NCBI GenBank assembly: GCA_016840405.1
Contig: JAEOSK010000006.1
Coordinates: 1-64,000 of the forward strand
Reading direction: 5' to 3'
Length of the DNA stretch: 64,000 nucleotides
Source: Candidatus Hermodarchaeum yapensis
GTDB taxonomy: Archaea; Asgardarchaeota; Hermodarchaeia; Hermodarchaeales; Hermodarchaeaceae
This document shows, one piece after another, positions 1 to 17,567 of this stretch. Position numbers and translations under genes: made by a program. Each line of letters starts with the position of its first letter. The stretch's first letter is position 1. The notes under the pieces are model-generated. The model did not search any database, was not told the DNA's origin, and worked only from the letters and a program-made list of their open reading frames with translations.

Positions 1-1418
1 AGCCATCCTTGTGCATCACCGGTTGCTGTTTCAATTGACATAACTGTCATGAATCCAATCAACAATCCGTAAATCCCTAAAGCCTCAGCCAGCACCACGG
101 AGACCAAGCCTTTACTGAAGGTTTCTGGGCGATCTGCAATTGTCTCGCTCAACGATTCACCGGCATATGCGATACCAAAGCCAGCACCGATGCAAGCAAC
201 ACCGATTGCAATGCCCGACCCAATTGCTAGCAAGCCTTGGCCTGTTGTAATGGTCGGAGAGTCAGCACTCATGATTAACATGAATGCTAGTAATAGCCCG
301 TAAATACCAAGGGCTTCAGCGAGGACAACACTGACTAAGCCTTTACTGAAGGATTCTGGTGCACGTACGAGTGATTTACTCAATGCAGAGCCAGCTTTGG
401 CGATACCTAATCCTGCTCCGATTCCCGCGAACCCAATAGCGATGGCAGCGCCTATGGCGATCATTCCCTGTCCACTCTCGACACTGATTTCTCCCACTTG
501 CATAAGGAGCATGAAACTGACTAATAATCCGTAAATGCCCAAGGCTTCAGCCAGCACCACAGAGACCAAACCTTTGCTGAAGACCTCGGGTCGTTCGACG
601 AGCGACTCAGATAAAGCAGCTCCCCCTGAGGCAATACCGATCCCCGCACCGAGTGCGGCTAATCCGATTGCGAGACCAGCTGCAATGGCGACCCAGCCAG
701 CTGTGAGCGTAGTGACGGTTTCGATTTCCATAAGCAGCATGAAACTGGCGAGAAGGCCGTAGATGCCTAGGGCTTCAGCGAGAACGACGCTCACGAGCCC
801 TTTACTGAAAGTTTCAGGCGCACGAACGAGAGCTTTACTTAATGCAGAACCAGCTTTAGCAATACCAATCCCTGCTCCAATCGCAGCAAGGCCGATGGCG
901 AGTCCAGCAGCTATGGCGATATAACCGGATGCGATGTTTGTAGCGCTCTCGATATTCATGAGAAGCATGAAGCTGGCAAGTAAACCGTATATGCCAAGAG
1001 CCTCAGCGAGAACGACGCTGACGAGACTTTTGCTGAAGGTTTCAGGGGCTTCAGCGATGCTGGTGCACATGCTACTTCCCGCATATGCAATACCAATCCC
1101 CGCTCCTATTGCAGCGACACCGATAGCGAGGCCGGCACCGAAGGCAATGAGGCCTTGAGCGGGTTCGGTGATGCTGGGGAGTTGCATAAGGATCATGAAT
1201 GAAGCTAATAACCCGTAAATTCCAAGGGCCTCTGCCAAGACGACAGCAATCATGCTTTTACTAAAGGTTTCAGGGCGTTCAGCGATAGTACCGATCATGG
1301 CGCTTCCACTGAATCCAATGCCGATGGCTGCACCTGTAGCGCCGAGGCCAGCGGCGAGAAGGGCGCCGAATGTGGCGAGGACCTGTCCTAATGATTCAAC
1401 GGGAATCAGCTGGAGCAT
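1..1418 (-). CDS. atpK: A/V-type ATP synthase proteolipid (subunit c/K), multi-hairpin fusion, truncated by window edge
   Basis: Hand translation from ATG at 1418 gives an open frame to base 1 (MLQLIPVESLGQ...). Six repeats of GAGIGIA...PETFSK.LVSVVLAEALGIYGLL. Absent from the ORF track because no stop lies inside the window. Confidence 0.95.
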   Translation of the reverse strand, partial: MLQLIPVESLGQVLATFGALLAAGLGATGAAIGIGFSGSAMIGTIAERPETFSKSMIAVVLAEALGIYGLLASFMILMQLPSITEPAQGLIAFGAGLAIGVAAIGAGIGIAYAGSSMCTSIAEAPETFSKSLVSVVLAEALGIYGLLASFMLLMNIESATNIASGYIAIAAGLAIGLAAIGAGIGIAKAGSALSKALVRAPETFSKGLVSVVLAEALGIYGLLASFMLLMEIETVTTLTAGWVAIAAGLAIGLAALGAGIGIASGGAALSESLVERPEVFSKGLVSVVLAEALGIYGLLVSFMLLMQVGEISVESGQGMIAIGAAIAIGFAGIGAGLGIAKAGSALSKSLVRAPESFSKGLVSVVLAEALGIYGLLLAFMLIMSADSPTITTGQGLLAIGSGIAIGVACIGAGFGIAYAGESLSETIADRPETFSKGLVSVVLAEALGIYGLLIGFMTVMSIETATGDAQGW

Positions 1419-1424
1419 GGACTA

Positions 1425-3431
1425 TCACTTCTTTGGAGGAGAGGCAGTTGATGTTGTCGTCCATCGGTCGGGGAAGGCAAAGGGTTCATACTTGTGTCCT
1501 GTGCCTGCGTAGAATTTCAGGTAGGCTTCTACCCAGTGGAGACGCAGGGTATGGATGAATGAGAGGAGACCTTCCATGAGAAGGACGAAGATAGTACCCA
1601 CGATTATCATTATGATAAGCATAATGATAGTGAGTTCGCCACTGCTAAGTTGGGCGAATATGGTCATGATTTCAGCTGCAGCGACACCAGCGATGAAGAG
1701 GAAGGTTTTGGCAAAGCCGGCGTGGGCCATGTTAAGAGCGAGTATTCGGGTGTAGCTGATGGTGTTGCTAATACTTTCAATGAGTTTTTCTATGGTTTCC
1801 ATAAATCCGTCCATAAAGCCAAAGGCCATGATACCGCCGATTAGCATGACGAGGATAGGGGCAATTAGAAAGAGAAGCATATCAGTCATGGGCCAACTCA
1901 TGAAGTTGATGCCGTAGTTGAAGATCATGTAGGCGAGACCCCAAAGGAAGAGGAGCCAGATGATAGGACCAAAGATTGCGTGAATCCAATCACGGTGACG
2001 AAGTTTGTTGATGGCGTCGATTCCAATGGAAATGCTCAGGTGGATAAATCCTATCATGATGCTAAGGACGAATAGTATCCAGGTGGGGCTAGCGATCGTG
2101 GGGTCGAGGATTTCAGGCATTTCAAAAGCACTAAACCAGATAGCAGTAGGATGAGCGTGAGGTAATTGGTTAATCCAAGCGTTATAGGGACTGAAGGGGT
2201 TGAGGAACCAGTTGAGACCACCTTCGAAATCGAAAAATGCGAAGAGCTGGACGAGAATCTCTTTCATGAATTGCCCAAAGGGGGAATATTTGAGGATTTG
2301 ATAGGGGTAGACCGCTTCGGTGCCAACGTAAAAGTTGAAGCCTGTGATGTCAATTCCTAAAAATTCGCCATATAAGACACCAAAAAATATTGAAAATATT
2401 GCGATGACTGCGATGAGTCCAGAGCCTTGGATGAAGTAGTTGACCATTTCACCCGCGTCAACTTTACGGCGTTTAGCAATCATTCCAAGCATTGCAAAGA
2501 AGAGAAGAAGAATACCGTGGCCCACATCTCCGAACATCAACCCGAATATAATTGGAAAGCCGAGAGCCATGAACCAGGTGGGGTCGATTTCGGTGTGGTT
2601 GGGGAGCCCAAAAGCGTTGGTAAGGCTTTGGTATGAGAAGAGAGATTTTGGGTTGGTCTGCTTCGTGGGTGGTGCGGCGATTTCTTCAGGTGCAATGGCC
2701 CCTTCTAGAGGTCCTGTGTCACCAGGATAGTGATCAGCTTCTGGTTTGTCGATGTGTTTATGGATTTCTAGGGAAATTGCACCGTGGTTGAATTTGGTGA
2801 GGGATGTAGCGAATTTTTCGGCTTTTTTTGTAGGAACCCAGCCGTAAAGGAGGTAGGTGCGTTTGGTTTTACCGAAGAGGGTTTTGGTTTCTTCGAGGTG
2901 ATGTTCGCGTTTGACAACTTCTTCCCAGCCAAGGAGGTCGAAGCGCTCTTCTTTGGCGAGAGTCTCAATTTCTTTTTTTATTGCTTTTGCTGTCTTTTTG
3001 GCGGCTTTTCTTTCTTTTTTATCGTGTGAGTCTTGTGCAGTTTCTGCGGCAGCTAGTTTTCGATCGAGTTCTTCAAAATGGGCTTCGATGGTTTTAAGGG
3101 ATTGTTCAATTGATTGAAAATAAGTGCCATCGGGAACAGTGGGAACTTCGAGTCGGTGCTTCACTTTTCCGCCGCGATAGACCTGTCTATCGCTAATGAG
3201 GGTGCTTATGCGGGTGAGAAGGTTTGCGAGATAGTAGTAATGCTCGGAGGCTTCAACGGGTTGTAATTCTATGATGGACTTGTCTCCACTTTGTTTGAAG
3301 TCAGTGAAATGGGCGAGCTCGGTGCTTGCGATATGTCGAAGAGCCGCATCTAGTTGGGTGTCTAGTACCACGGCGGTGAAGCTACTCATTTTCGCTGGAA
3401 GCATTGGCGACAATTTTCCCACCATTAGCAC
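1425..3431 (-). CDS. atpI: A/V-type ATP synthase subunit I (a)
   Basis: Soluble N-terminal half; motifs IDPT..FP.IFGLMFGDVGHG, SNTISYTRILAL (essential Arg), HTLRLHWVE..KFY.G.G. Confidence 0.95.
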   Translation of the reverse strand: MLMVGKLSPMLPAKMSSFTAVVLDTQLDAALRHIASTELAHFTDFKQSGDKSIIELQPVEASEHYYYLANLLTRISTLISDRQVYRGGKVKHRLEVPTVPDGTYFQSIEQSLKTIEAHFEELDRKLAAAETAQDSHDKKERKAAKKTAKAIKKEIETLAKEERFDLLGWEEVVKREHHLEETKTLFGKTKRTYLLYGWVPTKKAEKFATSLTKFNHGAISLEIHKHIDKPEADHYPGDTGPLEGAIAPEEIAAPPTKQTNPKSLFSYQSLTNAFGLPNHTEIDPTWFMALGFPIIFGLMFGDVGHGILLLFFAMLGMIAKRRKVDAGEMVNYFIQGSGLIAVIAIFSIFFGVLYGEFLGIDITGFNFYVGTEAVYPYQILKYSPFGQFMKEILVQLFAFFDFEGGLNWFLNPFSPYNAWINQLPHAHPTAIWFSAFEMPEILDPTIASPTWILFVLSIMIGFIHLSISIGIDAINKLRHRDWIHAIFGPIIWLLFLWGLAYMIFNYGINFMSWPMTDMLLFLIAPILVMLIGGIMAFGFMDGFMETIEKLIESISNTISYTRILALNMAHAGFAKTFLFIAGVAAAEIMTIFAQLSSGELTIIMLIIMIIVGTIFVLLMEGLLSFIHTLRLHWVEAYLKFYAGTGHKYEPFAFPDRWTTTSTASPPKK

Positions 3432-5273: not shown

Positions 5274-6881
5274 TTAGATTATTGGCATTGTCAGTGCACT
5301 TTCAGCCGCTAGCCTTGCTACGTCGAGGAAGAAGGTGGGGAAGATTCCAATGCCAATGATGAACAGTGTCATGACGACAATGACGAAGAGCATGAGGGGA
5401 TGGGGGTCTTTGGCAGCGGCAGCCTCTGGGCTGGGTTCAGAAAAGACGAGAATTTGAATCATGCGTAAGTAATAGACAACGCTGAAGGCGCTCATGAGAA
5501 CCAAGATTATTGTCGAAAGGTAAGCTCCGCCGATGATTGAGCCCCAAATGATGTAGAATTTGCTGTAGAACCCAATGAGAGGTGGTACACCTGCAAGGGA
5601 CAGGGCCGCAATAGTGAAACAGAACATAGTGATTGGCATGCGCCGACCTGCACCGCGAAGTAGATCGAGATCTCTGGTATGAAGCTGATGGATGAAGATG
5701 CCTGAAATCAAGAAGAGAGCCCCCTTCGCGAGCATGTGACTTGTGATATGGAAGAGGCTTCCTGTCAGAGCATATTCAACGGCGAATGGAGTTTCTGTTG
5801 CAGGGATCCAGTAACTTAGTGGCATCATGGCAATGGTGTATCCAAAGATGATGTACCCGACATTTACGATGGTCGAGTATGCAAGAAGACGTTTTATGTC
5901 CTTCTGAGTTAAAGCCATGAGGTTGCCAAATATCAGGGTGAAAATCGCAAACCAGCTCAGAATCATTCCATAGTACGTAAAGATGTAAGTAAGAGTAGTT
6001 GTTAGGAGTGCATTCCCATAAAAGTTCAAGAACAATCGAAGGATAGCATAGCTCCCTGTCATAATTACGACACCGCTCAGCATGGCACTAATTCCGCTGG
6101 GAGCAGCGGGGTGGGCATCAGGTAACCAAGTGGAGAGGGGAGCAATCGCCGCTTTTACACCGAAGCCGACGATTAATCCTACCATTGTGAAAAGAACCAG
6201 ACCGTAAAGGGGTGAAGTTGTGGCAGGAAGTGGAGAGAATAAAGCCTCAATAGCAGGACCAATCGCGTAGAGGTTGATTGTGCCAGTTATGCCATAGAGA
6301 ATGGACATAGTGAAGAGAATCAGGGTAGATCCGACAGCACTCAAAAGTAAGTACTTGATTCCTGCTTCTAGGGGTTCAGCCTCATCTTTGCGGAAGGCGA
6401 CTAGGACATAACTGCTTATTGACATAACCTCCCAGAGGATGAAGAGCGTGAAGAAGTCGCCAGCCATGACGACACCAATCATACCACCCACGAGTGTGAG
6501 GAGGAGGGCATAGAAAAGTGAGAGTCGAGTGTCATGTTCCATGTATTTGATAGAATAGATTGAGACGAAGAATCCGAGAAACGCGAAGACGACAGCCATG
6601 TAAACGGTGAGGAAATCGATGTAGAAGAAGGTAGCACCAGTAGTTGCGTCGAATGCGCCTTGAGGCCAATACCAGATGGTGATTGGCCCACCACCGAGGA
6701 CCTGGTACCAGAGGAGTATAAGGAACACTAATGCAACGAAAAAGAAGAATGCGGAAAGTCCGCCAAGAGCTGCTTTCCCTCGTTCTTTGATTCTCGTTCC
6801 AATAAGACCAATGATGAGGGCTCCAATAAATGGAAGCCATAACGGGATGAGCAGAATCCATTGTTCAATTCCTATAGCCAT
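5274..6881 (-). CDS. Antiporter-like membrane subunit (NuoN/MrpD/HyfB type)
   Basis: FILWEVMS, KY, WLPDAHPAAPS, DIKRLLAYS, GVPPLIGFYSK; highly hydrophobic; last gene of the JKLM run. Confidence 0.85.
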   Translation of the reverse strand: MAIGIEQWILLIPLWLPFIGALIIGLIGTRIKERGKAALGGLSAFFFFVALVFLILLWYQVLGGGPITIWYWPQGAFDATTGATFFYIDFLTVYMAVVFAFLGFFVSIYSIKYMEHDTRLSLFYALLLTLVGGMIGVVMAGDFFTLFILWEVMSISSYVLVAFRKDEAEPLEAGIKYLLLSAVGSTLILFTMSILYGITGTINLYAIGPAIEALFSPLPATTSPLYGLVLFTMVGLIVGFGVKAAIAPLSTWLPDAHPAAPSGISAMLSGVVIMTGSYAILRLFLNFYGNALLTTTLTYIFTYYGMILSWFAIFTLIFGNLMALTQKDIKRLLAYSTIVNVGYIIFGYTIAMMPLSYWIPATETPFAVEYALTGSLFHITSHMLAKGALFLISGIFIHQLHTRDLDLLRGAGRRMPITMFCFTIAALSLAGVPPLIGFYSKFYIIWGSIIGGAYLSTIILVLMSAFSVVYYLRMIQILVFSEPSPEAAAAKDPHPLMLFVIVVMTLFIIGIGIFPTFFLDVARLAAESALTMPII

Positions 6882-6896
6882 CTTTTTTAACCTCCA

Positions 6897-8405
6897 TTAG
6901 GGGATCCAGGTTATCGCTCCGAATAGTGGATTGAGTACGATCCATGGCCAGATTCCAAGGATGATGATGAATAAGGCCAGGAATATCATGGGGATGCGCA
7001 TCGTCAAGGGACTGTCCGTGACGTTTTCCAGATCATTCGGTGTGGCGCCAAAGAATACGCGTTTGACGAACCATAAGATGTAGCTGGCGGTCAGGGCTGT
7101 TGATGCAACGGCAAATATCAATATGTAGAAGGTGGAGGCAAGCGCAGCACCACCGAAGATAATGAATTCTGAGAGGAACCCAGCGAGCGGTGGAGTACCA
7201 GCAATGCTGAGACCTGCGATAAGGGCAATAGTAGCCGTCCAAGGCATCTTTCGAGCCAAGCCACCCATGACGTTGATATCACGACCACGCTCATGACCAA
7301 TCTGGAGGATCAACACACCAGCGACCATAAACAAGAGGCCTTTGCCTAGGGCGTGGGTAAAGATATGGAAGGTGGCACCCACAACCCCTAGAAGGATTGC
7401 AGTTCCGAGACCCAGGAAGATGTATCCCATTTGTGAAACCGAGGAATAGGCGAAGAGACGTTTGGTATCCTTTTGAGCGAGCGCCATGAGACCACCATAA
7501 ATCATGGTGACAAGGCCAAAGCCCATGAGGATGTATACGAAGATACTGTACGCAGGGAGTAGAAATGTCATGAGGATCCGTATCATGGCATAGGCTGCAG
7601 TTTCAATCATGACTCCGGATAAGATGACGCTGATGGGTGTAGGGGCTTCAGCGTGGGCGTCGGGAAGCCAGGTGTGTAGTGGGAAGATTGCCATTTTCAC
7701 TGCAAACCCGATGGTAAAGAGGATAACTAGAATTTTCATAAGTTCAAAGGCAAAGATCTGGGCGAGATTGGCTTGTGGGAATGCCCATGAGAGATTGATG
7801 ACGGGTGTTGTACCAGTGAAACCGTACATATTCAGAGTTGGTACACTGGAAAGGGCCCACATGCCTGCAATACCAACGATAATGAGGACAGCACCGATGT
7901 GGGTGAAGATGAAATATTTCAGGGCGATTCCCGTGGATTTGGGTTTGGTGCCCCATTCGGCAATCAGGAAATAGCTGGGAATAAGCATGAGTTCCCAGAA
8001 AATGTAGAACTGGAAGAGGTTCGTAGCCAAGACGACACCGAGAATTCCAGCATTATACATCAGTAAGAGGGCGTAGTATCGGTTTTTCCCATGTTCTTTG
8101 GACATATAGGCGAGTGAGAAACAGGTTGCTGCAGTGGTGAGTACTAACACGATTCCACCGACCGTAGCACTCAAGCCATCGAGAAGCCAGCCAAAGAGGA
8201 ATGGTCCCCAGAAGAAAGCTTCCGTATAATCACCAGCGACCACAAATTCCCACCAGGCTAAGCCAAAGGTGACAAGGCATGTCAACATAATCAGCAGTGC
8301 AAAGATTCCAGCGTATCGACCATTTCTTCGACCGATAATCCAAGCAATGGGAGCGCCAATCAGCATGAGTAAAACGGTGAATGTGAGATAGTTAAACAGA
8401 GCCAT
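6897..8405 (-). CDS. nuoM: NuoM-like antiporter-type subunit
   Basis: FYIFWELMLIPSYFLI, FPLHTWLPDAHAEAPTP, KRLFAYSSVSQMG. Confidence 0.85.
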   Translation of the reverse strand: MALFNYLTFTVLLMLIGAPIAWIIGRRNGRYAGIFALLIMLTCLVTFGLAWWEFVVAGDYTEAFFWGPFLFGWLLDGLSATVGGIVLVLTTAATCFSLAYMSKEHGKNRYYALLLMYNAGILGVVLATNLFQFYIFWELMLIPSYFLIAEWGTKPKSTGIALKYFIFTHIGAVLIIVGIAGMWALSSVPTLNMYGFTGTTPVINLSWAFPQANLAQIFAFELMKILVILFTIGFAVKMAIFPLHTWLPDAHAEAPTPISVILSGVMIETAAYAMIRILMTFLLPAYSIFVYILMGFGLVTMIYGGLMALAQKDTKRLFAYSSVSQMGYIFLGLGTAILLGVVGATFHIFTHALGKGLLFMVAGVLILQIGHERGRDINVMGGLARKMPWTATIALIAGLSIAGTPPLAGFLSEFIIFGGAALASTFYILIFAVASTALTASYILWFVKRVFFGATPNDLENVTDSPLTMRIPMIFLALFIIILGIWPWIVLNPLFGAITWIP

Positions 8406-8417
8406 CTTTGTGTCACC

Positions 8418-10667
8418 TCATGGAAAGGGGAGTGGTATTAGTAAACCTCCATAGAATTGAAAGAGCAGTAGGAGGAGGAGAAAAGCGAGCGCGCCTATGA
8501 GCAATAGAATCATGTTCCAGCTGTGCACGCCAGTTTGTAGTCGACGCCAGCCGCGGCTTGCCCCCATAGCAGAGTCAGCCACGACATAATTAAATTTGTC
8601 AATGCCCTTGGTTTCGATGTATTTGTACATGCCACGTGCTACTCGGAGCCCACCGTCAACGAAGATCAGGTACATGGCTCCGTTCCAGTACCAGCGGTTG
8701 TAGAGGAAGTTGTAGATTCGTCGCGCAAATCCTCGACCAGCAAAGTCTGTGCTCCGGCTTCCTCGAATGTAGAAGATGTAGCCTGGAATACCACCAAGAA
8801 GTAAAGCACCAATTGTGATTAGGAAGGTGGGTGAGGTAAAGACATGAATGAAGAATTCAAGATACATCTCCAGAAGGGGAGCAAGGTGTGGAGCGTGGGG
8901 AATGAGACTGTACTGTACATCCCAGAACTGATAGAAGAAGTTTTGAAGGAACGGCTCAGTGAAACCGATGATGAGGGTTGCTATGGCTAGGATTGCCAGT
9001 GGGACCCACATGATTCCGGGCGCTTCATGCACAGGCGTTCCCGCCGCTTCGAGGTCCTTGACGTTTTTACTGGGATTACCAAGGAAAGTTAAACCAATCA
9101 ATCGGAAGCTGTAGAAGATTGTAAAGGCGGCAGTAAGGGCACCGAAGAGGAGAAAGATCATGCCCCATAAACTTCCGGTTCCCCATAAGTGCCATGCTGA
9201 GGAGAAGATGGCTTCTTTACTCCAGAAGCCACCGAATGGCGGGACTCCACTGAGGGCTAGCGCGCCTATGAGCATCACGGCGAAGGTGATGGGCATAGCC
9301 TTTCGGATGCCTCCCATATCAGCTAGGTATTTGCTATGAACCGCATGGAGCACAGCACCAGCAGAAAGGAAGAGCAGGGCTTTGAAGATGGCGTGAGCCG
9401 CTAAGTGGAAGGCAGCAGCGGTGTAGCCATAAACACCATCAGCGGTGAAGGCGAAGATGCCAAGGGCCATGAACATGTAGCCTAGTTGGCTTATTGTGCT
9501 AAAGGCGAGGACCTTCTTGAGTTCGTTTGCCACTAACGCCATTGTTGCAGCCATGAAGGCAGTAAAGGTGCCGATGATAGCGATGATGAGGAAGAAGTTT
9601 AGGAGGGCATTTTGGGCAATGGCGTAGAGTGCGGGAATCATAATAGTACTGAGAGCGAAGTATCCTTGGACTAGAATGGGTGACATTCGGGCAACCAAGT
9701 ATACACCGGCTTTGACCATGGCGGCAGCGTGGATAAGTGCAGATACAGTAGTGGGCCCAGCCATAGCTTCTGGAAGCCAGAACTGGAGTGGGAATTGGGC
9801 ACTTTTACCAATGGGACCAAGGAAGAAGAGGAGAAATACCGTTAACAACAGAACACCATTCAGTACAATAGCCATTTGGCCAAGCCATGCATAGTCCGTG
9901 AGGAGTGCTTGATAGTTGAGGGTTGGATTTCCTGCGGAGACAGTGAAGAAGAAAATGAAGATAATGGAGATGAGGAGTCCGACATCACCGACGCGGGTGA
10001 CGATGAAGGCTTTCATACCGCTGTGTGAATTGAGCTCGCCTTCAGTTACATCCCCAAGCTGGTCATCATGAACCATATTGGATCGATTGTACCAGAAACC
10101 AATGAGTGCGTAAGAGCATAGGCCAACGATTTCCCAGCCAATGAACGTGAGGAGGAGGTTGTTGGCCATGACCAGGATGACCATTCCACCGATGAAGAAT
10201 TGCATGAAGAACCAATAGCGCGAGAGGGAAGAATCACCCTTCATGTAACCTAGGCTATAGGCGAGGATTAGGAAGCCGACGCCAGTGGCGACACATGCCA
10301 TGAAGACAGACAGGGGGTCAATGAGCATCCCCCAATCAATAGTGATCAAACCAGGAACCGAGATCCAAGGTGAAGTAACTTCTAGCCATTGTGTGCCATC
10401 CCAAGCCACTCCGGAAAAGATGGCAGAGATCATTGAGAAAGCCATGAGCATGCCGAGGTAGCCAAAGAGGATGGCGCTGTAGTCTCGGGCTTTTGGATGG
10501 AATTTCGCTAGAAGTGGAGCAAGGACGGCTCCAAGAATGGGGAATCCCCAGCAAAGCCATGCATTGTAGGGATAGAACATTTGACCAAAGATCACTGCAG
10601 CAATCAAGATTATGGCTGCAATTATGACAATGATTAACCCGACGACCCTATTCTGTGAGTTTGACAT
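8418..10667 (-). CDS. nuoL: NuoL-like antiporter-type subunit
   Basis: GWEIVGLCSYALIGFW, KAFIVTRVGD, GKSAQFPLQFWLPEAMAGPTTVSALIHAA, KKVLAFSTISQLGYM. Confidence 0.93.
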   Translation of the reverse strand: MSNSQNRVVGLIIVIIAAIILIAAVIFGQMFYPYNAWLCWGFPILGAVLAPLLAKFHPKARDYSAILFGYLGMLMAFSMISAIFSGVAWDGTQWLEVTSPWISVPGLITIDWGMLIDPLSVFMACVATGVGFLILAYSLGYMKGDSSLSRYWFFMQFFIGGMVILVMANNLLLTFIGWEIVGLCSYALIGFWYNRSNMVHDDQLGDVTEGELNSHSGMKAFIVTRVGDVGLLISIIFIFFFTVSAGNPTLNYQALLTDYAWLGQMAIVLNGVLLLTVFLLFFLGPIGKSAQFPLQFWLPEAMAGPTTVSALIHAAAMVKAGVYLVARMSPILVQGYFALSTIMIPALYAIAQNALLNFFLIIAIIGTFTAFMAATMALVANELKKVLAFSTISQLGYMFMALGIFAFTADGVYGYTAAAFHLAAHAIFKALLFLSAGAVLHAVHSKYLADMGGIRKAMPITFAVMLIGALALSGVPPFGGFWSKEAIFSSAWHLWGTGSLWGMIFLLFGALTAAFTIFYSFRLIGLTFLGNPSKNVKDLEAAGTPVHEAPGIMWVPLAILAIATLIIGFTEPFLQNFFYQFWDVQYSLIPHAPHLAPLLEMYLEFFIHVFTSPTFLITIGALLLGGIPGYIFYIRGSRSTDFAGRGFARRIYNFLYNRWYWNGAMYLIFVDGGLRVARGMYKYIETKGIDKFNYVVADSAMGASRGWRRLQTGVHSWNMILLLIGALAFLLLLLLFQFYGGLLIPLPFP

Positions 10668-10687
10668 TTTTCTTTTTCACCTCAGAG

Positions 10688-11023
10688 TTAATGACGTAGT
10701 TTGTTCAGTTTTCGGATGTCGAGGGTTCCGAATTTATTGTATGCTCGAATGATGAAGGCTAGCGCAATGGCAATGACGCCACCACCGATACAGATACTGA
10801 CGATGACGATTGCTTGAGCTAGTAGGTCAATGTAAAAGCCCTGCCAGGCAACGGCAAAGGTGATGAAGTTCAAGTGAGCTCCGTCAAGAAGTAATTCTAG
10901 GGCAATAAGGAACCTGATCATATTTCGCTTCGTCGCCATTCCATAAATTCCAATAGCATACAGGAAGACTGCGACGATGAGGAATACATAGATGGGGACG
11001 CCTAACAATTCAAGATATGACAT
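10688..11023 (-). CDS. nuoK: NuoK-like subunit
   Basis: Three TM helices; KRNMIRFLIALELLL; position in the operon. Confidence 0.85.
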   Translation of the reverse strand: MSYLELLGVPIYVFLIVAVFLYAIGIYGMATKRNMIRFLIALELLLDGAHLNFITFAVAWQGFYIDLLAQAIVIVSICIGGGVIAIALAFIIRAYNKFGTLDIRKLNKLRH

Positions 11024-11029
11024 TTTGAA

Positions 11030-11329
11030 TTACTCCTCCTCCATTGCTTCTGTTGACTTTGGTTCAGCCACGTGGAAAAAGATTGAGGCCGCCAGAGCGG
11101 CGACAAACAGAAACACGCCTTGTAGAACCATATCGATGCCCCGATAATGCCATAACATTTCACCGAGTGCATGGATCATATCATAAACGTCATCCGGTGA
11201 AACAAATCGAGTCAGTGGAATAGGATCCTGAGGAATCAACACTACTCCAGCCATTCCCATTACAATCAGATATGCAAAGAGAAGTCCAAACAACAATGTT
11301 AGGATAAAACCTACTGCTTTGATTCTCAT
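11030..11329 (-). CDS. Small membrane subunit (C-terminal half of a split NuoJ, or MbhE/F-like)
   Basis: Two TM segments; LWHYRGID motif; lies between the NuoJ-like and nuoK genes with overlapping stop/start. Confidence 0.6.
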   Translation of the reverse strand: MRIKAVGFILTLLFGLLFAYLIVMGMAGVVLIPQDPIPLTRFVSPDDVYDMIHALGEMLWHYRGIDMVLQGVFLFVAALAASIFFHVAEPKSTEAMEEE

Positions 11330-11700
11330 GTCACGTCCTCCTCTTCGATTTCACCAGTACCACGACGTGTCGATAACGAAACAGCAGCCACTAACAGAAT
11401 CGTAACTGCCCCCGCATAAACTGCGAGCTGGAAAAAGGCCACCCACGGGGCAAAAAGCGCCAAGTAAATTAATCCAAGCGCAATAGCGGATCCTGCCAAA
11501 TAGAGAGCAGAATGTAAGAGATCTTTATCTTCCATTGCTAGAATGGCAAATACCACCACAAGAATAAGCAGCCCATATAAAGAATACACGGAAAATGGTG
11601 GACCTAACAGCATAAACAAAGACAATACGATGGCTACGGCTATTATTGCCAGTAGCCCAACGACCACAGTTCGAGATAACGACATCGTTGGAATCTCCAT
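11326..11700 (-). CDS. nuoJ: NuoJ-like subunit (N-terminal half)
   Basis: DLLHSALYL...APWVAFFQLAVYAGAVTILL matches the NuoJ QxxVYxGA motif. Confidence 0.8.
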   Translation of the reverse strand: MEIPTMSLSRTVVVGLLAIIAVAIVLSLFMLLGPPFSVYSLYGLLILVVVFAILAMEDKDLLHSALYLAGSAIALGLIYLALFAPWVAFFQLAVYAGAVTILLVAAVSLSTRRGTGEIEEEDVT

Positions 11701-11822: not shown

Positions 11823-13250
11823 GTGAACTACCCCTGCTTTCATGCAGTGGTTTCCATCGAGTCCTCTACCCGGGGAACATGGGGGAGGGCTGTGTGTCGA
11901 TGTAAGCCATGCAAGAAAGCTTGTAATGGCTCCCCGTTTACTGGGGGTTGCTGCAATAGGAACCGCACCATAAGGTTTACTGCGGCATTCTGATCTCGAT
12001 TAAAGGGGGTTCCACAATCGCATTGAATAAGACGTTCCGATAACTGACGATCTCGAACCGTGCCACATACACAGCATCTCTTGGTTGCCTGCGTCTCGTC
12101 AATTCTTATCACTCTTTTACCTACTTTCTTGGCTTTGTAGGTCAAGAATTGGACGAATCGCCCCAAGAAGTCGGTGTTCTGGATAGAATGATGTAGTGTT
12201 CGAGTTGCTGCATCCTGTCGCCGACACCCCGACACTTGTTTTTTCCGCGCCATCTGTTTCACCACGAGATTCCCAACGATGATCGTGTTAGCCCGAGTAT
12301 TCATAACCACTGACTTGGAAATTTTATGTTGAAAATCCCGTAACTGGTTAGCCAGTTTCCGTCGCATCTTCAGCAATTTTCGCTGATAGAACCACCATCG
12401 ATTACTAGATTCTCGACAATGATCGCGTCGCGATTGTACTTCTCGAAGTTTGTCTTTCCAGTACAGGTCCGGACGACGATTGCGAATTTGGACGAACTTT
12501 CCCTGTGGGTTCACTGCCGTGACCAAATTGATCACCCCCAAGTCAATGGCTTGATACCGTCCATTGTCTACATATGGGGGAACTGGCACCTCGCAGGTGA
12601 TGGCGACAAACCATCGACGTCGTTGATCTTGAAAGATTTCCACCTGCTTGATTCTACCGCTTAGAGGTGGTAACTAAGATAACGCAAACTCAAGTTCAAC
12701 TCCCGAAGGATGACGGTGGGCGAAACGAATCTTCTGGTGATCAACATCAAATACAAATCCGGATTGATTATAGCACAATGTAGTAAAGTAGTGTTTGCCC
12801 TTACAGCGGGGAGGTCGGGCTTGGATATCGCCGCGATGCCAGCAGGCGAAGAACGACTTGTAATCGGCATCGAGACGTCGTAACACCATTTGCAGGACCT
12901 TTGAATAGACCCAGGCATATTCGGGATATTTTACTTTGAGAACAGGCAGGAAATTTTGTTGTTGTATGTACGTGATGTAGATGCGCTCGGTCTTCGGTTT
13001 CGTACGATTGGTTGCCCACCGTTGGCGTCTTTCGGCAAGGGCAAAGTTGTAGAGAAGGCGACATTTTTCGGATAACGCCCACAAGACATGGGCTTGTTCC
13101 GGCGTAGGAGCTATGCGGATTTTTCGTGTCAGCAGCATCCGGGTCATGGAACAATAAAAAAGTCATCGGCGTTTTTCAGTCTGTGGGAGAGGTGCTGATA
13201 ACTATTGGGCGATTCTTCTCCGCCTTGAAAAATGGGGACTTCTTGGCAAA
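11823..13250 (-). mobile_element. Non-autonomous IS200/IS605-family element (tnpB only)
   Basis: Minus-strand right end reads ...GAAACCACTGCATGAAAGCAGGGGTAGTTCAC (hairpin + TTCAC). A left-end-like hairpin CCAAGAAGTCCCC...TCAAGGCGGAGAAG follows TTTAT near 13250. Left boundary approximate. Confidence 0.8.
11840..13147 (-). pseudogene. tnpB: TnpB interrupted by an in-frame TAG at 12674-12676
   Basis: The two track ORFs share a frame (TCT TAG TTA CCA...CAG GTG). Motifs LYNFALAERR, AIDLGV, CCVCG..CDCG, NRDQNAAVN. Confidence 0.88.
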
Positions 13251-15553: not shown

Positions 15554-16402
15554 CTATTTGGGTTTGGCAGGTTTACCTGCGAGTTTTGTTTTACCACCTA
15601 CGGTGCCATCATCAAAGTGGGGTGACCGATGAAGGCTATCACCATATTTTTCAATTTCTCTGGCTTCGTCTGCAAGAAGAGCAGCAGTTCGCATCATCTC
15701 ATGCGCAGAAGCTACTGTGGGGATGTATTTTTCGTGCTCTTTTTGCTTGAAACAACCCTTGATGGCAATGGGTGCGACGGCGGTGGCGATTTCGTAGGCG
15801 GCCATCGCTTTGGCACGAGCATAGGGATTTGTGAATTTACCTGCGCTGACAGCTCGTGAAGCATTAATCACTAAGGTAGGGACTTTCGGTTCTTTACCTG
15901 CAACAATATTAGCAATGGCTTCGTCTAATGCTTGTAGTACTCGACGAAGAGCTCCAGTAGCTGCTAATACACGGATGACATCAGCATTGAAGAGCACCAT
16001 TTCTGTCGGATCCAAGAATTCCCGACGCGCTCCAATCATGGAATCAGCAGGGATCAGGATGTAACCATAACCTTCAGCGGCTAGGGCTTCCCGTTGATCT
16101 TTGGGTAAGAGATCTGATAGAATAATGACAGGTATACCAGCTTTCTTGATCACTTCTCGGGCTTTGGCTGGACCTTTAAGTGCGGCATTCGGGCTGGGGA
16201 TTAATACAAGCTGAGGTTTCTGTTCAATAAGCTGTTGTGCGCTACGTTCGGCCACTTCCTCGTTCATCTTGGCACCGGAGCCAACAAGAACGACATCGAA
16301 GTTTTCGCGTTCAGCGCGTTCATCGAATAAGAGTTCGAGGAGGGGAGATGTTCCGATATTACCTAATTTCAATACACCAAGGAGAAAGGGAGTTGAACTC
16401 AA
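15554..16402 (-). CDS. mtd: F420-dependent methylene-H4MPT dehydrogenase
   Basis: KLGNIGTS..ELLFDERAERE, GSGAKM, SPNAALKGP, DSMIGARREFLDPTEM, ASAHEMMR. Probable TTG start at 16402. Confidence 0.95.
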   Translation of the reverse strand: MSSTPFLLGVLKLGNIGTSPLLELLFDERAERENFDVVLVGSGAKMNEEVAERSAQQLIEQKPQLVLIPSPNAALKGPAKAREVIKKAGIPVIILSDLLPKDQREALAAEGYGYILIPADSMIGARREFLDPTEMVLFNADVIRVLAATGALRRVLQALDEAIANIVAGKEPKVPTLVINASRAVSAGKFTNPYARAKAMAAYEIATAVAPIAIKGCFKQKEHEKYIPTVASAHEMMRTAALLADEAREIEKYGDSLHRSPHFDDGTVGGKTKLAGKPAKPK

Positions 16403-16511
16403 ACTAAGACCACCACAAAGTGTGTTGTATATGTAGCTGGTTCTGTCGTGGTTACATGACAAAAGTGTTTAGTTTCAAGTGAGAAAAACAAATGTAAGGG
16501 GTTCGGGGTGA

Positions 16512-17567
16512 TTATGGGTTGACTTTGGGAGCAGCGATTCGTCGGAGGCGGTCAAGGTTTTCTGCTTCGATTTCTTCATGAAGGAATAATTTGGCGGCAA
16601 TCATTTCTTCGATGAGGCTTTCACCTTGTTCGCTTCGAGCAAGGACGGTTGACCATTTTCCAGGAGTTCCAGCTCCACCTACAGAAACGTCGGCAAAGTC
16701 CGAAGAAAAATCGCGGCAATGATGACAGCCAGGATCCACCCAATCTTGGGCTTCTTTCAAGGGAATCTTCAACGATTCTTTAACACCCCGAGGGTAGACG
16801 AGAAGCTTTCCTTTGATGTCGAGTTTTCGGAGATTCTTCAGAGGAACACCTAGATCGTCGACGATTTTTTGTTGCATGAGTTCATCGAATTTGAAAGTCT
16901 CACTGCAAAAGAGTCCGATGGTAAACACGACCGTTCGATCAATTCGTTTCAGTGGGGCTAGTCGCATACGTTGTATTGCTTGGATATGACACGGTGTACC
17001 AACCAGTGCAATCTGTTTCAGTTTACGATCTTTGATTGCCTCCTTTAGTGCCACGAGATTCGGTGAGCGAGTGTAGCGGGATTTCGAAGCTGCAACGATT
17101 TCCTTTCTTGTTGTTGCCACTTGGGGCAAAGGATGCCATGGGTTATCCGGGTCAACTCCAGAGAGGACGGCACCTTCAATCTTACCCGTTTCTAAAAGAT
17201 GGACAAGCATGCCAGTAACAATTCCACCGTCTTGCGCACGTTTGCGAATTGACTCGTCAGCATTTCGAAGTGCGTATGCTTGACGGTAAACACCGAGTGC
17301 TGGATCACGTGTGGCATCCTCTCCAAAGACTTCGGTATAGAGGGGTCCATAATCATCAATCATCCTTGGACATGACTTCCAACAGAACTCACACTTATTG
17401 CACTCCTTCACCAACGTTGGTCGAAGGTTTTGCAGTTCTATTGCTCCGATGGGACATGCTGCTTCACAGCCACCACAGCTGCAGCATTTGCCAGCATCAA
17501 TGACATTTGCTTCTAAGTGCTCAAATCCAAGTTTCTCAGGCTTTTCCTTACTCAACGGAATCACCAA
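16512..17567 (-). CDS. FrhB/FpoF-family F420-interacting flavoprotein with N-terminal 2x[4Fe-4S]
   Basis: CCSCGGCEAACP..CNKCEFCWKSCP, AQDGGIVT, VGTPCHI, IGLFCSETF, GCHHCRDF..ADVSVG. Confidence 0.9.
   Translation of the reverse strand: MVIPLSKEKPEKLGFEHLEANVIDAGKCCSCGGCEAACPIGAIELQNLRPTLVKECNKCEFCWKSCPRMIDDYGPLYTEVFGEDATRDPALGVYRQAYALRNADESIRKRAQDGGIVTGMLVHLLETGKIEGAVLSGVDPDNPWHPLPQVATTRKEIVAASKSRYTRSPNLVALKEAIKDRKLKQIALVGTPCHIQAIQRMRLAPLKRIDRTVVFTIGLFCSETFKFDELMQQKIVDDLGVPLKNLRKLDIKGKLLVYPRGVKESLKIPLKEAQDWVDPGCHHCRDFSSDFADVSVGGAGTPGKWSTVLARSEQGESLIEEMIAAKLFLHEEIEAENLDRLRRIAAPKVNP

What the first reader, a model, noticed from the sequence alone, without database searches (positions are those of the whole stretch)
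1..1418. Giant fused ATP-synthase c subunit: at least six hairpins in one polypeptide
Seen: an uninterrupted minus-strand frame of at least 472 codons right after atpI. Glu codons of the AEALGIYG motif lie at 1230, 1002, 774, 546, 315 and 84 (spacing 228, 228, 228, 231, 231 bp), and a seventh unit starts at the window edge. The repeats differ at synonymous sites and in the loops, which argues against a collapsed or expanded assembly repeat. Known: c subunits usually have 1-3 hairpins; Methanopyrus kandleri is the classic exception with 13. Inference: much or all of the rotor ring may be a single chain, fixing the ion/ATP ratio genetically.
Basis: partly seen in the sequence, partly recalled or inferred. 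Interest (0 to 1): 0.88.

Follow-up and report, generated by a model that had tools for sequence, protein, structure and literature searches.

The report
Eight-hairpin ATP synthase rotor gene
An Asgard archaeon (Hermodarchaeia) encodes the proton-carrying rotor subunit of its only rotary ATP synthase as one 613-residue protein of eight fused, all-active hairpins; the gene is cut by a contig end, and its nearest sister species carries a 15-hairpin version at the same place.

Summary
Window 3..1418 (-) is the first 472 codons of an A/V-type ATPase proteolipid (subunit K/c) gene, with six complete PF00137 hairpins, 6 nt after subunit I.

The window starts at a contig end. The rest of the gene lies on another contig of the same genome (C73:1-772). 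The joined gene is 1842 nt, or 613 aa, with exactly eight hairpins, each keeping its Glu. An identical 613-aa protein is encoded intact on four contigs fetched from other assemblies, with the same neighbouring genes. The break comes from a strain variant (nine synonymous SNPs), not from a collapsed repeat.

The genome holds one rotary ATPase and no other c gene. Within the genus the gene occurs as an 8-hairpin or a 15-hairpin form. The nearest relative (flanks about 92% identical in DNA) has the 15-hairpin form, and exactly the a (I), c and d genes drop to 59-80% (one 200-nt window in I reaches 86%).

I infer H+ coupling. I think two chains forming a 16-site ring is most likely (about 0.55), and a single-chain c8 ring less likely (about 0.25). 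Ring size could not be tested here.

The scan found the 8- and 15-hairpin forms before on other DNA. The papers I read stop at 13 hairpins (Methanopyrus).

The parts
1..1418 (-). 5' 1418 nt (codons 1-472 and two bases of codon 473) of the proteolipid gene atpK/c. The remaining 424 nt are off-window on G000:C73:349-772 (+). The whole gene is 1842 nt, 613 aa, eight hairpins.
   Evidence: An identical 613-aa protein, P0116, is encoded intact on other assemblies.
1191..1370 (-). Hairpin 1 (N-terminal type); Glu63 codon at 1230-1232.
   Evidence: PF00137 match; Glu position; terminal-type clade in the hairpin tree.
963..1142 (-). Hairpin 2; Glu139 codon at 1002-1004.
735..914 (-). Hairpin 3; Glu215 codon at 774-776.
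507..686 (-). Hairpin 4; Glu291 codon at 546-548.
276..455 (-). Hairpin 5; Glu368 codon at 315-317.
48..224 (-). Hairpin 6; Glu445 codon at 84-86.
1..348 (.). Overlap with the start of contig C73 (reverse complement). It has nine differences, all at third codon positions and all synonymous. This is a strain-variant allele and explains the contig break.
   Evidence: Four other assemblies carry the C73 allele at 8-9 of the 9 sites.
1425..3431 (-). Subunit I (a, the stator) of the A/V-type ATPase, 668 aa, 6 nt upstream of the c gene. Together with c it forms a patch of low identity to the sister species.
   Evidence: PF01496; tree; identity profile.

Best explanation
This is the 5' three quarters of the only proteolipid (K/c) gene of the single A/V-type ATP synthase of a Hermodarchaeia (Asgard) archaeon. 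The complete gene, rejoined across a contig break, encodes 613 aa: eight covalently linked helical hairpins (16 membrane helices). Each hairpin carries the ion-binding Glu in VVLAEAL(G/A)IY, and each lacks the polar residues of a Na+ site, so the protein is inferred to carry eight protons. The first and last hairpins are special 'seam' types, conserved in every chain of this family. Inferred, not shown: two chains assemble head to tail into a 16-site ring. That would give about 5.3 H+ per ATP, close to the 5.0 of the 15-hairpin single-chain ring of sister species, and would allow ATP synthesis at a low proton-motive force. The 8- and 15-hairpin forms behave as alternative alleles that are exchanged between close relatives together with the a and d genes.
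For: Gene and join:
- Contig C73 overlaps by 348 nt with nine differences, all synonymous, and adds two hairpins and a stop.
- The joined protein is colinear, hairpin by hairpin, with complete 8-hairpin orthologues inside long contigs of four related genomes.
- An identical 613-aa protein (P0116) is on record for five contigs. The four fetched come from ENA, NCBI and JGI assemblies and show the synteny nuoN-CysRS-I-c-orf72-orf132-radical SAM. A 20.8-kb JGI contig whose protein differs by 2 aa spans both sides.

Function:
- The genome has one copy each of A (with an intein), B, F, D, E, C/d and I, and no other PF00137 gene.
- The AF2 model has pLDDT 89.1 and pTM 0.88, with 16 long membrane helices in eight hairpins. 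Pairs of hairpins superpose on V-type c subunits (TM-score 0.92 by target, rmsd 1.5 A).
- The nearest solved sequences are H+-pumping eukaryotic c''/c.
- Selection is purifying: 89% aa against 73% nt identity to G012.

Ring size (inference):
- Solved A/V rings among the hits have 12 chains of one hairpin (6qum) or 10 chains of two hairpins (2bl2).
- On the subunit-I tree, c8 and c15 genomes are interspersed; G000 is sister to a c15 genome with 98% support.
- The d clade that goes with c8 also serves a 15-hairpin chain in G011, on the same contig.
- A complex-I-like membrane arm lies next door, and Hermodarchaeota are described as anaerobes with several energy-conserving complexes (PMC8163825), so synthase mode is expected.
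- Physiological driving forces are 90-150 mV (PMC9171764). By my own calculation for 50 kJ/mol, eight sites would need about 194 mV and sixteen sites about 97 mV.
Against: - No tool here showed the ring stoichiometry. The model's coordinates cannot be inspected, and two copies (1226 aa) exceed the limit of complex prediction.
- Against the sister species G002, exactly the I-c and d genes are replaced while the flanks stay about 92% identical. The d clade follows the c type in 10 of 11 genomes with a known type. Such co-replacement would also be expected if the c8 ring had a different geometry.
- The 15-hairpin gene is not a clean fusion of two 8-hairpin genes: it has no H8-like or H1-like unit in the middle. 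That would-be support for a 2 x 8 ancestor is missing.
- F-type c8 rings do exist (2xnd, 8 chains per entry).
Confidence: 0.55

Rival explanations
1. One chain closes on itself into a c8 ring. This would be the smallest A/V-type rotor, with 2.67 H+ per ATP. The enzyme would then work mainly as an ATP-driven proton pump, or as a synthase only at high proton-motive force. Sister species would shift gear between 2.67 and 5 by swapping the a-c-d set.
For: The best AF2 monomer model has a high global confidence (pTM 0.88). The a, c and d genes are all replaced between G000 (c8) and its nearest relative G002 (c15), while the genes in between stay 80-94% identical. The d clades follow the c type almost perfectly. 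c8 rings exist in F-type enzymes (2xnd). No second c gene was found in G000. In the three other c8 genomes of the genus (G012, G010, G003), the protein search hit only the c8 locus.
Against: Eight hairpins is below every solved A/V ring among the hits (12 and 20 hairpins). The a-subunit lineages are not sorted by c type. The clade-A d subunit works with a 15-hairpin chain in G011. By my calculation, a ratio of 2.67 needs about 190-230 mV for synthesis, against the 90-150 mV called physiological in PMC9171764. A monomer prediction has no second chain to choose, so a closed model would prove little.
Confidence: 0.25
2. The polyprotein is cut after translation into single or double hairpins, which then form an ordinary multimeric ring of undetermined size.
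For: Nothing direct. The linkers on the outer face are short and variable, so a protease could reach them.
Against: There is no conserved cleavage motif in the linkers. The first and last hairpins are distinct types conserved in the 3-, 7-, 8- and 15-hairpin chains, which points to a role for the chain ends. The exact unit numbers are conserved across species.
Confidence: 0.06
3. The repeat number is an assembly artefact: a collapsed 15-hairpin gene, an expanded smaller gene, or a chimera of two contigs.
For: The gene is cut by a contig end, and the overlap between the two contigs is only 97% identical.
Against: The units share 49-68% of their bases, and the longest shared word is 23 nt. All nine overlap differences are synonymous. 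The identical 613-aa gene is encoded intact on four contigs fetched from other assemblies. Four related species have colinear 8-hairpin genes.
Confidence: 0.02

Closest known systems
Methanopyrus kandleri A-ATP synthase subunit K (13 hairpins, 1021 aa, deduced monomeric rotor; cited in PMC9171764 and 10.64898/2026.10.01.756066)
   Same: Many proteolipid hairpins are fused in one A-type c gene, and hairpin number is fixed by the gene. The Methanopyrus protein is found as P0130, with 13 hairpins by my count.
   Different: Identity is only 33%, so this is an independent fusion. There are eight hairpins here, not thirteen, too few for any solved A/V ring among the hits, so probably more than one chain per ring. 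The host is an Asgard archaeon, not a methanogen.
15-hairpin proteolipid of sister Hermodarchaeia (about 1147 aa; G002, G011, G001 and others)
   Same: Same locus, directly after subunit I. The N-terminal and C-terminal seam hairpins are the same types. H1-H4 and H13-H15 correspond to H1-H4 and H6-H8 here.
   Different: It has seven more internal units, derived from segmental duplications of H3-H6-like units. It can close a ring alone. Except in G011, it is linked to another d clade.
Eukaryotic V-ATPase proteolipids c and c'' (e.g. 6wlw, 9bra)
   Same: These are the nearest solved sequences (E 6e-18) and the best structural matches for a pair of hairpins (TM-score 0.92 by target, rmsd 1.5 A). 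The motif around the Glu is similar.
   Different: Eukaryotic c has two hairpins and one carboxylate. Here eight hairpins keep all eight carboxylates, the pattern of a synthase rather than a pump.
Engineered fused c subunits of bacterial F-ATP synthases (E. coli c2/c3, Bacillus PS3 multimers; from my own knowledge, not checked here)
   Same: Covalently fused c oligomers assemble into working rings made of several chains when the total fits the preferred ring size.
   Different: Those are artificial, F-type, and made of identical units. Here the units are natural, diverged, and have special end units.

Membership tests
A/V-type ATPase proteolipid, subunit K/c (Pfam PF00137) | Sequence match to the ATP-synt_C hairpin profile above the curated cut-off | tested here: met
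   332.5 bits against a cut-off of 24, with six stretches in the window part. Eight distinct hairpins are found on C67 plus C73.
A/V-type ATPase proteolipid, subunit K/c (Pfam PF00137) | Helix-loop-helix hairpin with a membrane-buried carboxylate in the second helix | tested here: met
   Glu at 63, 139, 215, 291, 368, 445, 521 and 596, each in VVLAEAL. The AF2 model has 16 long membrane helices, and the fold matches solved c subunits.
A/V-type ATPase proteolipid, subunit K/c (Pfam PF00137) | Encoded with the other subunits of one rotary ATPase | tested here: met
   The gene lies 6 nt after subunit I. A, B, F, D, E and C/d are present once each in the genome.
A/V-type ATPase proteolipid, subunit K/c (Pfam PF00137) | Assembles into a ring that rotates against subunit a and carries ions | not testable with these tools
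   Needs a structure or biochemistry.
Monomeric-rotor proteolipid (Methanopyrus type: the whole ring in one chain) | More than three hairpins fused in one reading frame | tested here: met
   Eight hairpins in one 613-aa frame.
Monomeric-rotor proteolipid (Methanopyrus type: the whole ring in one chain) | Enough hairpins in the one chain to make a complete A/V-type ring | tested here: inconclusive
   Eight is below the 12 and 20 hairpins of the solved A/V rings among the hits and below the 15 of the sister allele. A c8 ring is known only in F-type enzymes. Ring closure could not be inspected.
Na+-coupled c subunit | Gln/Glu in helix 1 and Ser/Thr right after the carboxylate in helix 2 (motif from my own knowledge of the I. 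tartaricus and E. hirae sites) | tested here: not met
   All eight sites read A-E-A-L. At the matching helix-1 position every hairpin has a non-polar residue (Ile in most units, as in GIGIA). The alignment to Na+ sites was done by eye, not by a tool.
V-type (eukaryote-like) c with a reduced number of carboxylates | Loss of the carboxylate in part of the hairpins | tested here: not met
   Eight of eight hairpins keep Glu.

The most novel reading that the evidence does not exclude
The eight-hairpin chain closes alone into a c8 ring, the smallest rotor of any A/V-type enzyme. Hermodarchaeia would then keep two alternative 'gear boxes' (a + c8 + d and a + c15 + d; 2.67 against 5 H+ per ATP) as exchangeable allele sets, which sister species swap by recombination.
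Probability: 0.22. Interest if true: 0.88.

Novelty: new variant of a known kind. Interest (0 to 1): 0.62.

Why it matters
The number of ion sites in the rotor sets the ion cost of ATP, a basic parameter of any cell's energy budget. It is normally known only after a structure is solved. In this Asgard family the number is written in the gene, in blocks of 8 or 15.

Sister species that are about 92% identical around the locus carry different blocks, together with different a and d genes. That gives a natural experiment on how rotor size, stator and central-stalk socket co-evolve. It also gives a simple target: one 61-kDa protein for expression, native mass spectrometry or cryo-EM, which would settle whether a ring can be built from two half-ring chains.

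The reviews I read still give 13 hairpins (Methanopyrus) as the only large fusion, and the paper that described Hermodarchaeota does not mention the ATPase at all.

Tried and rejected
- Tandem Repeats Finder found no array, because the units are too diverged.
I used other public assemblies instead.
- An '11-hairpin' relative (P0128, 829 aa) is only an N-terminally truncated gene call of a 15-hairpin protein: 99.9% identical, with the first 317 aa missing. Rejected.
- Origin of the 15-hairpin gene as a head-to-tail fusion of two 8-hairpin genes minus one unit: not supported. No terminal-type unit lies in the middle. The best colinear reading is H1-4 / H3-6-like / ? / H3(4)-8. The only hints are the longer linker after unit 8 and a faint likeness of unit 8 to the C-terminal type.
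Foldseek aligns only two hairpins at a time, and by my estimate an rmsd of 1.4-1.5 A does not separate an 8-ring from a 20-ring.
- Complex prediction was not sent. Two copies are 1226 residues, over the 1000 limit, and cut-down constructs would not distinguish cis from trans closure.
- dS between G000 and G012 is saturated, so no dN/dS value is given.
- G017 seems to hold both an 8- and a 15-hairpin gene. The latter and its subunit I are practically identical to those of G002, so I read it as bin contamination, not as two ATPases.

Full report
**The observation**

On the minus strand, 3..1418 is an open frame of 472 codons. It starts at ATG 1416-1418 and runs off the window. Pfam finds six ATP-synt_C (PF00137) stretches, 332 bits. 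The gene just upstream, 1425..3431 (-), is subunit I (PF01496) of an A/V-type ATPase, 6 nt away. The units share 49-68% of their bases over 213 nt, and the longest exact word common to two units is 23 nt. Tandem Repeats Finder reports nothing. These are therefore old, diverged repeats and not an assembly echo.

**Completing the gene**

- The window is bases 1-64000 of contig C67, so the frame is cut by a contig end.
- A second contig of the same genome, C73, begins with 348 nt that match window 1-348 in reverse complement at 97%. All nine differences are at third codon positions and are synonymous.
- C73 continues the frame for two more hairpins and a stop at base 772.
- The joined gene is 1842 nt and 613 aa, with Glu at 63, 139, 215, 291, 368, 445, 521 and 596.
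- It aligns hairpin by hairpin, without a missing or extra unit, with complete genes lying inside long contigs of four related genomes: G012 (89% identity), G010, G003 and G017.
- The public protein collection holds a 613-aa protein identical to my join (P0116), plus near-identical ones.
- P0116 is encoded intact on four contigs fetched from ENA, NCBI (GCA_030587465.1) and JGI assemblies. These show the order nuoN-like, CysRS, I, c, orf72, orf132, radical SAM, ThiF, which links the genes of my window to those of C73.
- Those contigs carry the C73 allele at 8-9 of the 9 variable sites.
- The contig break is therefore due to a co-occurring strain variant.
- Another first-stage note on this genome had listed the C73 piece as a separate '>=4 hairpin' gene. 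It is the 3' end of this one.

**What it is**

- Related records name the organism as Hermodarchaeota/Promethearchaeota, that is, Asgard archaea.
- The genome (86% complete) has PF00137 only at this locus and one subunit I.
- It has one A subunit, interrupted by a LAGLIDADG intein, and one B and one F. It also has one D, one E and one C/d. This is a single, scattered but complete A/V-type ATPase.
- An AlphaFold2 model built on 14 eight-hairpin sequences has pLDDT 89.1 and pTM 0.88, with 16 long membrane helices in eight hairpins.
- Pairs of hairpins in the model superpose on solved V-type c subunits. The best match is 6wlw_1, with a TM-score of 0.92 by target and rmsd 1.5 A. The E. hirae K subunit (2bl2) scores 0.91.
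- By sequence, the nearest solved chains are eukaryotic c'' and c (E 6e-18), ahead of the prokaryotic K subunits.
- Every site reads VVLAEAL(G/A)IY. The residue after Glu is Ala, and the matching helix-1 position is non-polar. By the known Na+ motif (my own knowledge), I infer H+ coupling.
- Selection is strongly purifying: 89% aa against 73% nt identity to G012, with saturated synonymous sites.

**The family**

- Among 18 other genomes of the same GTDB family, complete genes have 8 hairpins (G012, G010, G003, G017 contig 318) or 15 hairpins of about 1147 aa (G001, G002, G004, G006, G011, G014; G007 is split by a contig end).
- In two genomes of the second genus the c gene has 7 hairpins. It is followed by a gene for a signal peptide, about 320 aa rich in N-glycosylation sequons, and 3 hairpins.
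- Other Asgard genomes searched have matches that look like one- or two-hairpin genes.
- A hairpin tree and identity matrices show that the first and last hairpins are distinct types, conserved in the 3-, 7-, 8- and 15-hairpin chains (96% support).
- Units 1-4 and 13-15 of the long form correspond to 1-4 and 6-8 of the short form. The extra units look like segmental duplications of H3-H6-like units. No end-type unit sits in the middle, so the 15-hairpin form is not a simple fusion of two 8-hairpin genes.

**Exchange between close relatives (new here)**

- G002 is the nearest relative of this genome in flanking and other genes: nuoN-like 96%, CysRS 92%, orf132 95%, ThiF 87%, B subunit 98% (aa). 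Yet it has the 15-hairpin form.
- Along the aligned locus, DNA identity is 89-94% up to the start of subunit I. It drops to 60-80% through I (one 200-nt window reaches 86%) and to 62-70% through c. It returns to 86-94% right after the c stop codon, and drops again to 59-74% over d alone.
- On the subunit-I tree the two c types are interspersed: G000 groups with the c15 genome G002 at 98% support, and the other c8 genomes are sister to a c15 clade.
- The d tree has two clades. One goes with all four c8 genomes plus the c15 genome G011, on the same contig as its c gene. The other goes with six c15 genomes.
- So the a, c and d genes, the three proteins that touch at the rotor-stator interface, are exchanged as patches within the genus.

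**How it most likely works**

Shown: one chain of eight active hairpins belonging to the only rotary ATPase.

Inferred: the ring size. The arguments for two chains (16 sites) are these.
- Solved A/V rings among the PDB hits have 12 one-hairpin chains (6qum: 132 chains in 11 entries) or 10 two-hairpin chains (2bl2: 50 chains in 5 entries). Eight would lie outside this range, and sixteen within it.
- The a-subunit lineages do not sort by c type.
- A clade-A d subunit serves a 15-hairpin ring in G011.
- A swap between 15 and 16 sites is nearly neutral, whereas repeated swaps between 15 and 8 would halve the H+/ATP ratio between sister species.
- A complex-I-like membrane arm lies beside the gene, and Hermodarchaeota are described as anaerobes with several energy-conserving complexes (PMC8163825), so synthesis is the expected direction.
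- At 50 kJ/mol, eight sites need about 194 mV and sixteen about 97 mV (my calculation). The range called physiological is 90-150 mV (PMC9171764).

Against this reading, the co-replacement of a, c and d, and the near-perfect match of d clade to c type, are also what a different ring geometry would produce. Nothing here measured the ring. My odds are:
- two-chain ring: 0.55
- single-chain c8 ring: 0.25
- processing into smaller units: 0.06
- assembly artefact: 0.02
- other stoichiometries: the rest

**Comparison with what is known, and novelty**

- Reviews state that archaeal c subunits have 1, 2, 3 'or even 13' hairpins (PMC9171764). An October 2026 preprint still names Methanopyrus as the extreme.
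- The paper describing Hermodarchaeota does not mention the ATPase.
- Searches for Asgard with proteolipid, c-ring or hairpins found nothing on this.
- Public protein data are richer than the literature:
  - 6-hairpin forms in Methanocalculus and Methanomicrobium
  - PKD-domain plus 6 hairpins in Thermoplasmata
  - 8-hairpin forms at 32-34% identity
  - 12-13-hairpin forms labelled Woesearchaeota or Nanoarchaeota
  - the 15-hairpin Hermodarchaeia form
- NCBI labels the close orthologues 'hypothetical protein'.
- The scan had already reported the 8- and 15-hairpin genes on sister genomes.
- I class this as a new variant of a known kind, the fused multi-hairpin A-type proteolipid.
- What this report adds is the completed gene for this genome, the rejection of an apparent 11-hairpin form, the internal-duplication origin of the long form, and the patchwise exchange of a, c and d between sister species.

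Noticed in passing
L036:6519-8138 (-) (G015 contig 7); also G018, and proteins P0030, P0032, P0034, P0038: In the second genus of the family, the 7-hairpin c gene is followed by a gene for a signal peptide, about 320 aa with many N-x-S/T sequons and no Pfam match, and three c hairpins (N-terminal type, internal type, C-terminal type). This would put an extracellular glycoprotein domain on the rotor. It also implies rings built from more than one kind of chain.
   Followed up: partly
Proteins P0043-P0059 and P0053 (Thermoplasmata); P0033, P0041, P0071 (Methanocalculus, Methanomicrobium); P0133, P0137 (Woesearchaeota / Nanoarchaeota labels): Multi-hairpin proteolipids are far more common in public data than the literature says. 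Examples are PKD domain plus 6 hairpins, plain 6-hairpin forms in cultured Methanomicrobiales, and 12-13-hairpin forms in DPANN-labelled MAGs.
   Followed up: partly
L055:11051-14455 (-) (G000 contig C3): The catalytic A subunit is a 1134-aa frame interrupted in the P-loop region by an intein with a LAGLIDADG homing-endonuclease domain. A 330-aa gene with a weak MazE-like match sits between A and B.
   Followed up: no
window 11840-13147 (-): An IS605/TnpB-type element (OrfB_IS605 plus the Cas12f1-like TNB domain, with the HTH part in a separate frame, so probably broken) lies next to the complex-I-like membrane-arm genes.
   Followed up: no
window 5274-11700 (-) and 15554-17567 (-): Next to the ATPase genes lie three antiporter-like subunits (NuoL/M/N type), NuoK-like and NuoJ-like genes. 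Further on are methylene-H4MPT dehydrogenase (Mtd) and an FrhB-like F420 protein. Together these look like an Fpo/complex-I-like ion pump with a Wood-Ljungdahl methyl branch.
   Followed up: partly
G017 contigs C282 and C318 (L028, L027): One MAG holds both a 15-hairpin locus and an 8-hairpin locus. The 15-hairpin locus is practically identical to that of G002, from another genus. This is most likely bin contamination rather than two ATPases.
   Followed up: partly
L054:789-1007 (-) (G000 contig C73): A 72-aa, very hydrophobic protein is encoded convergently, 17 nt after the c gene. It is present at the same place in every assembly of this species and in G002 (83%). It has no family match.
   Followed up: no
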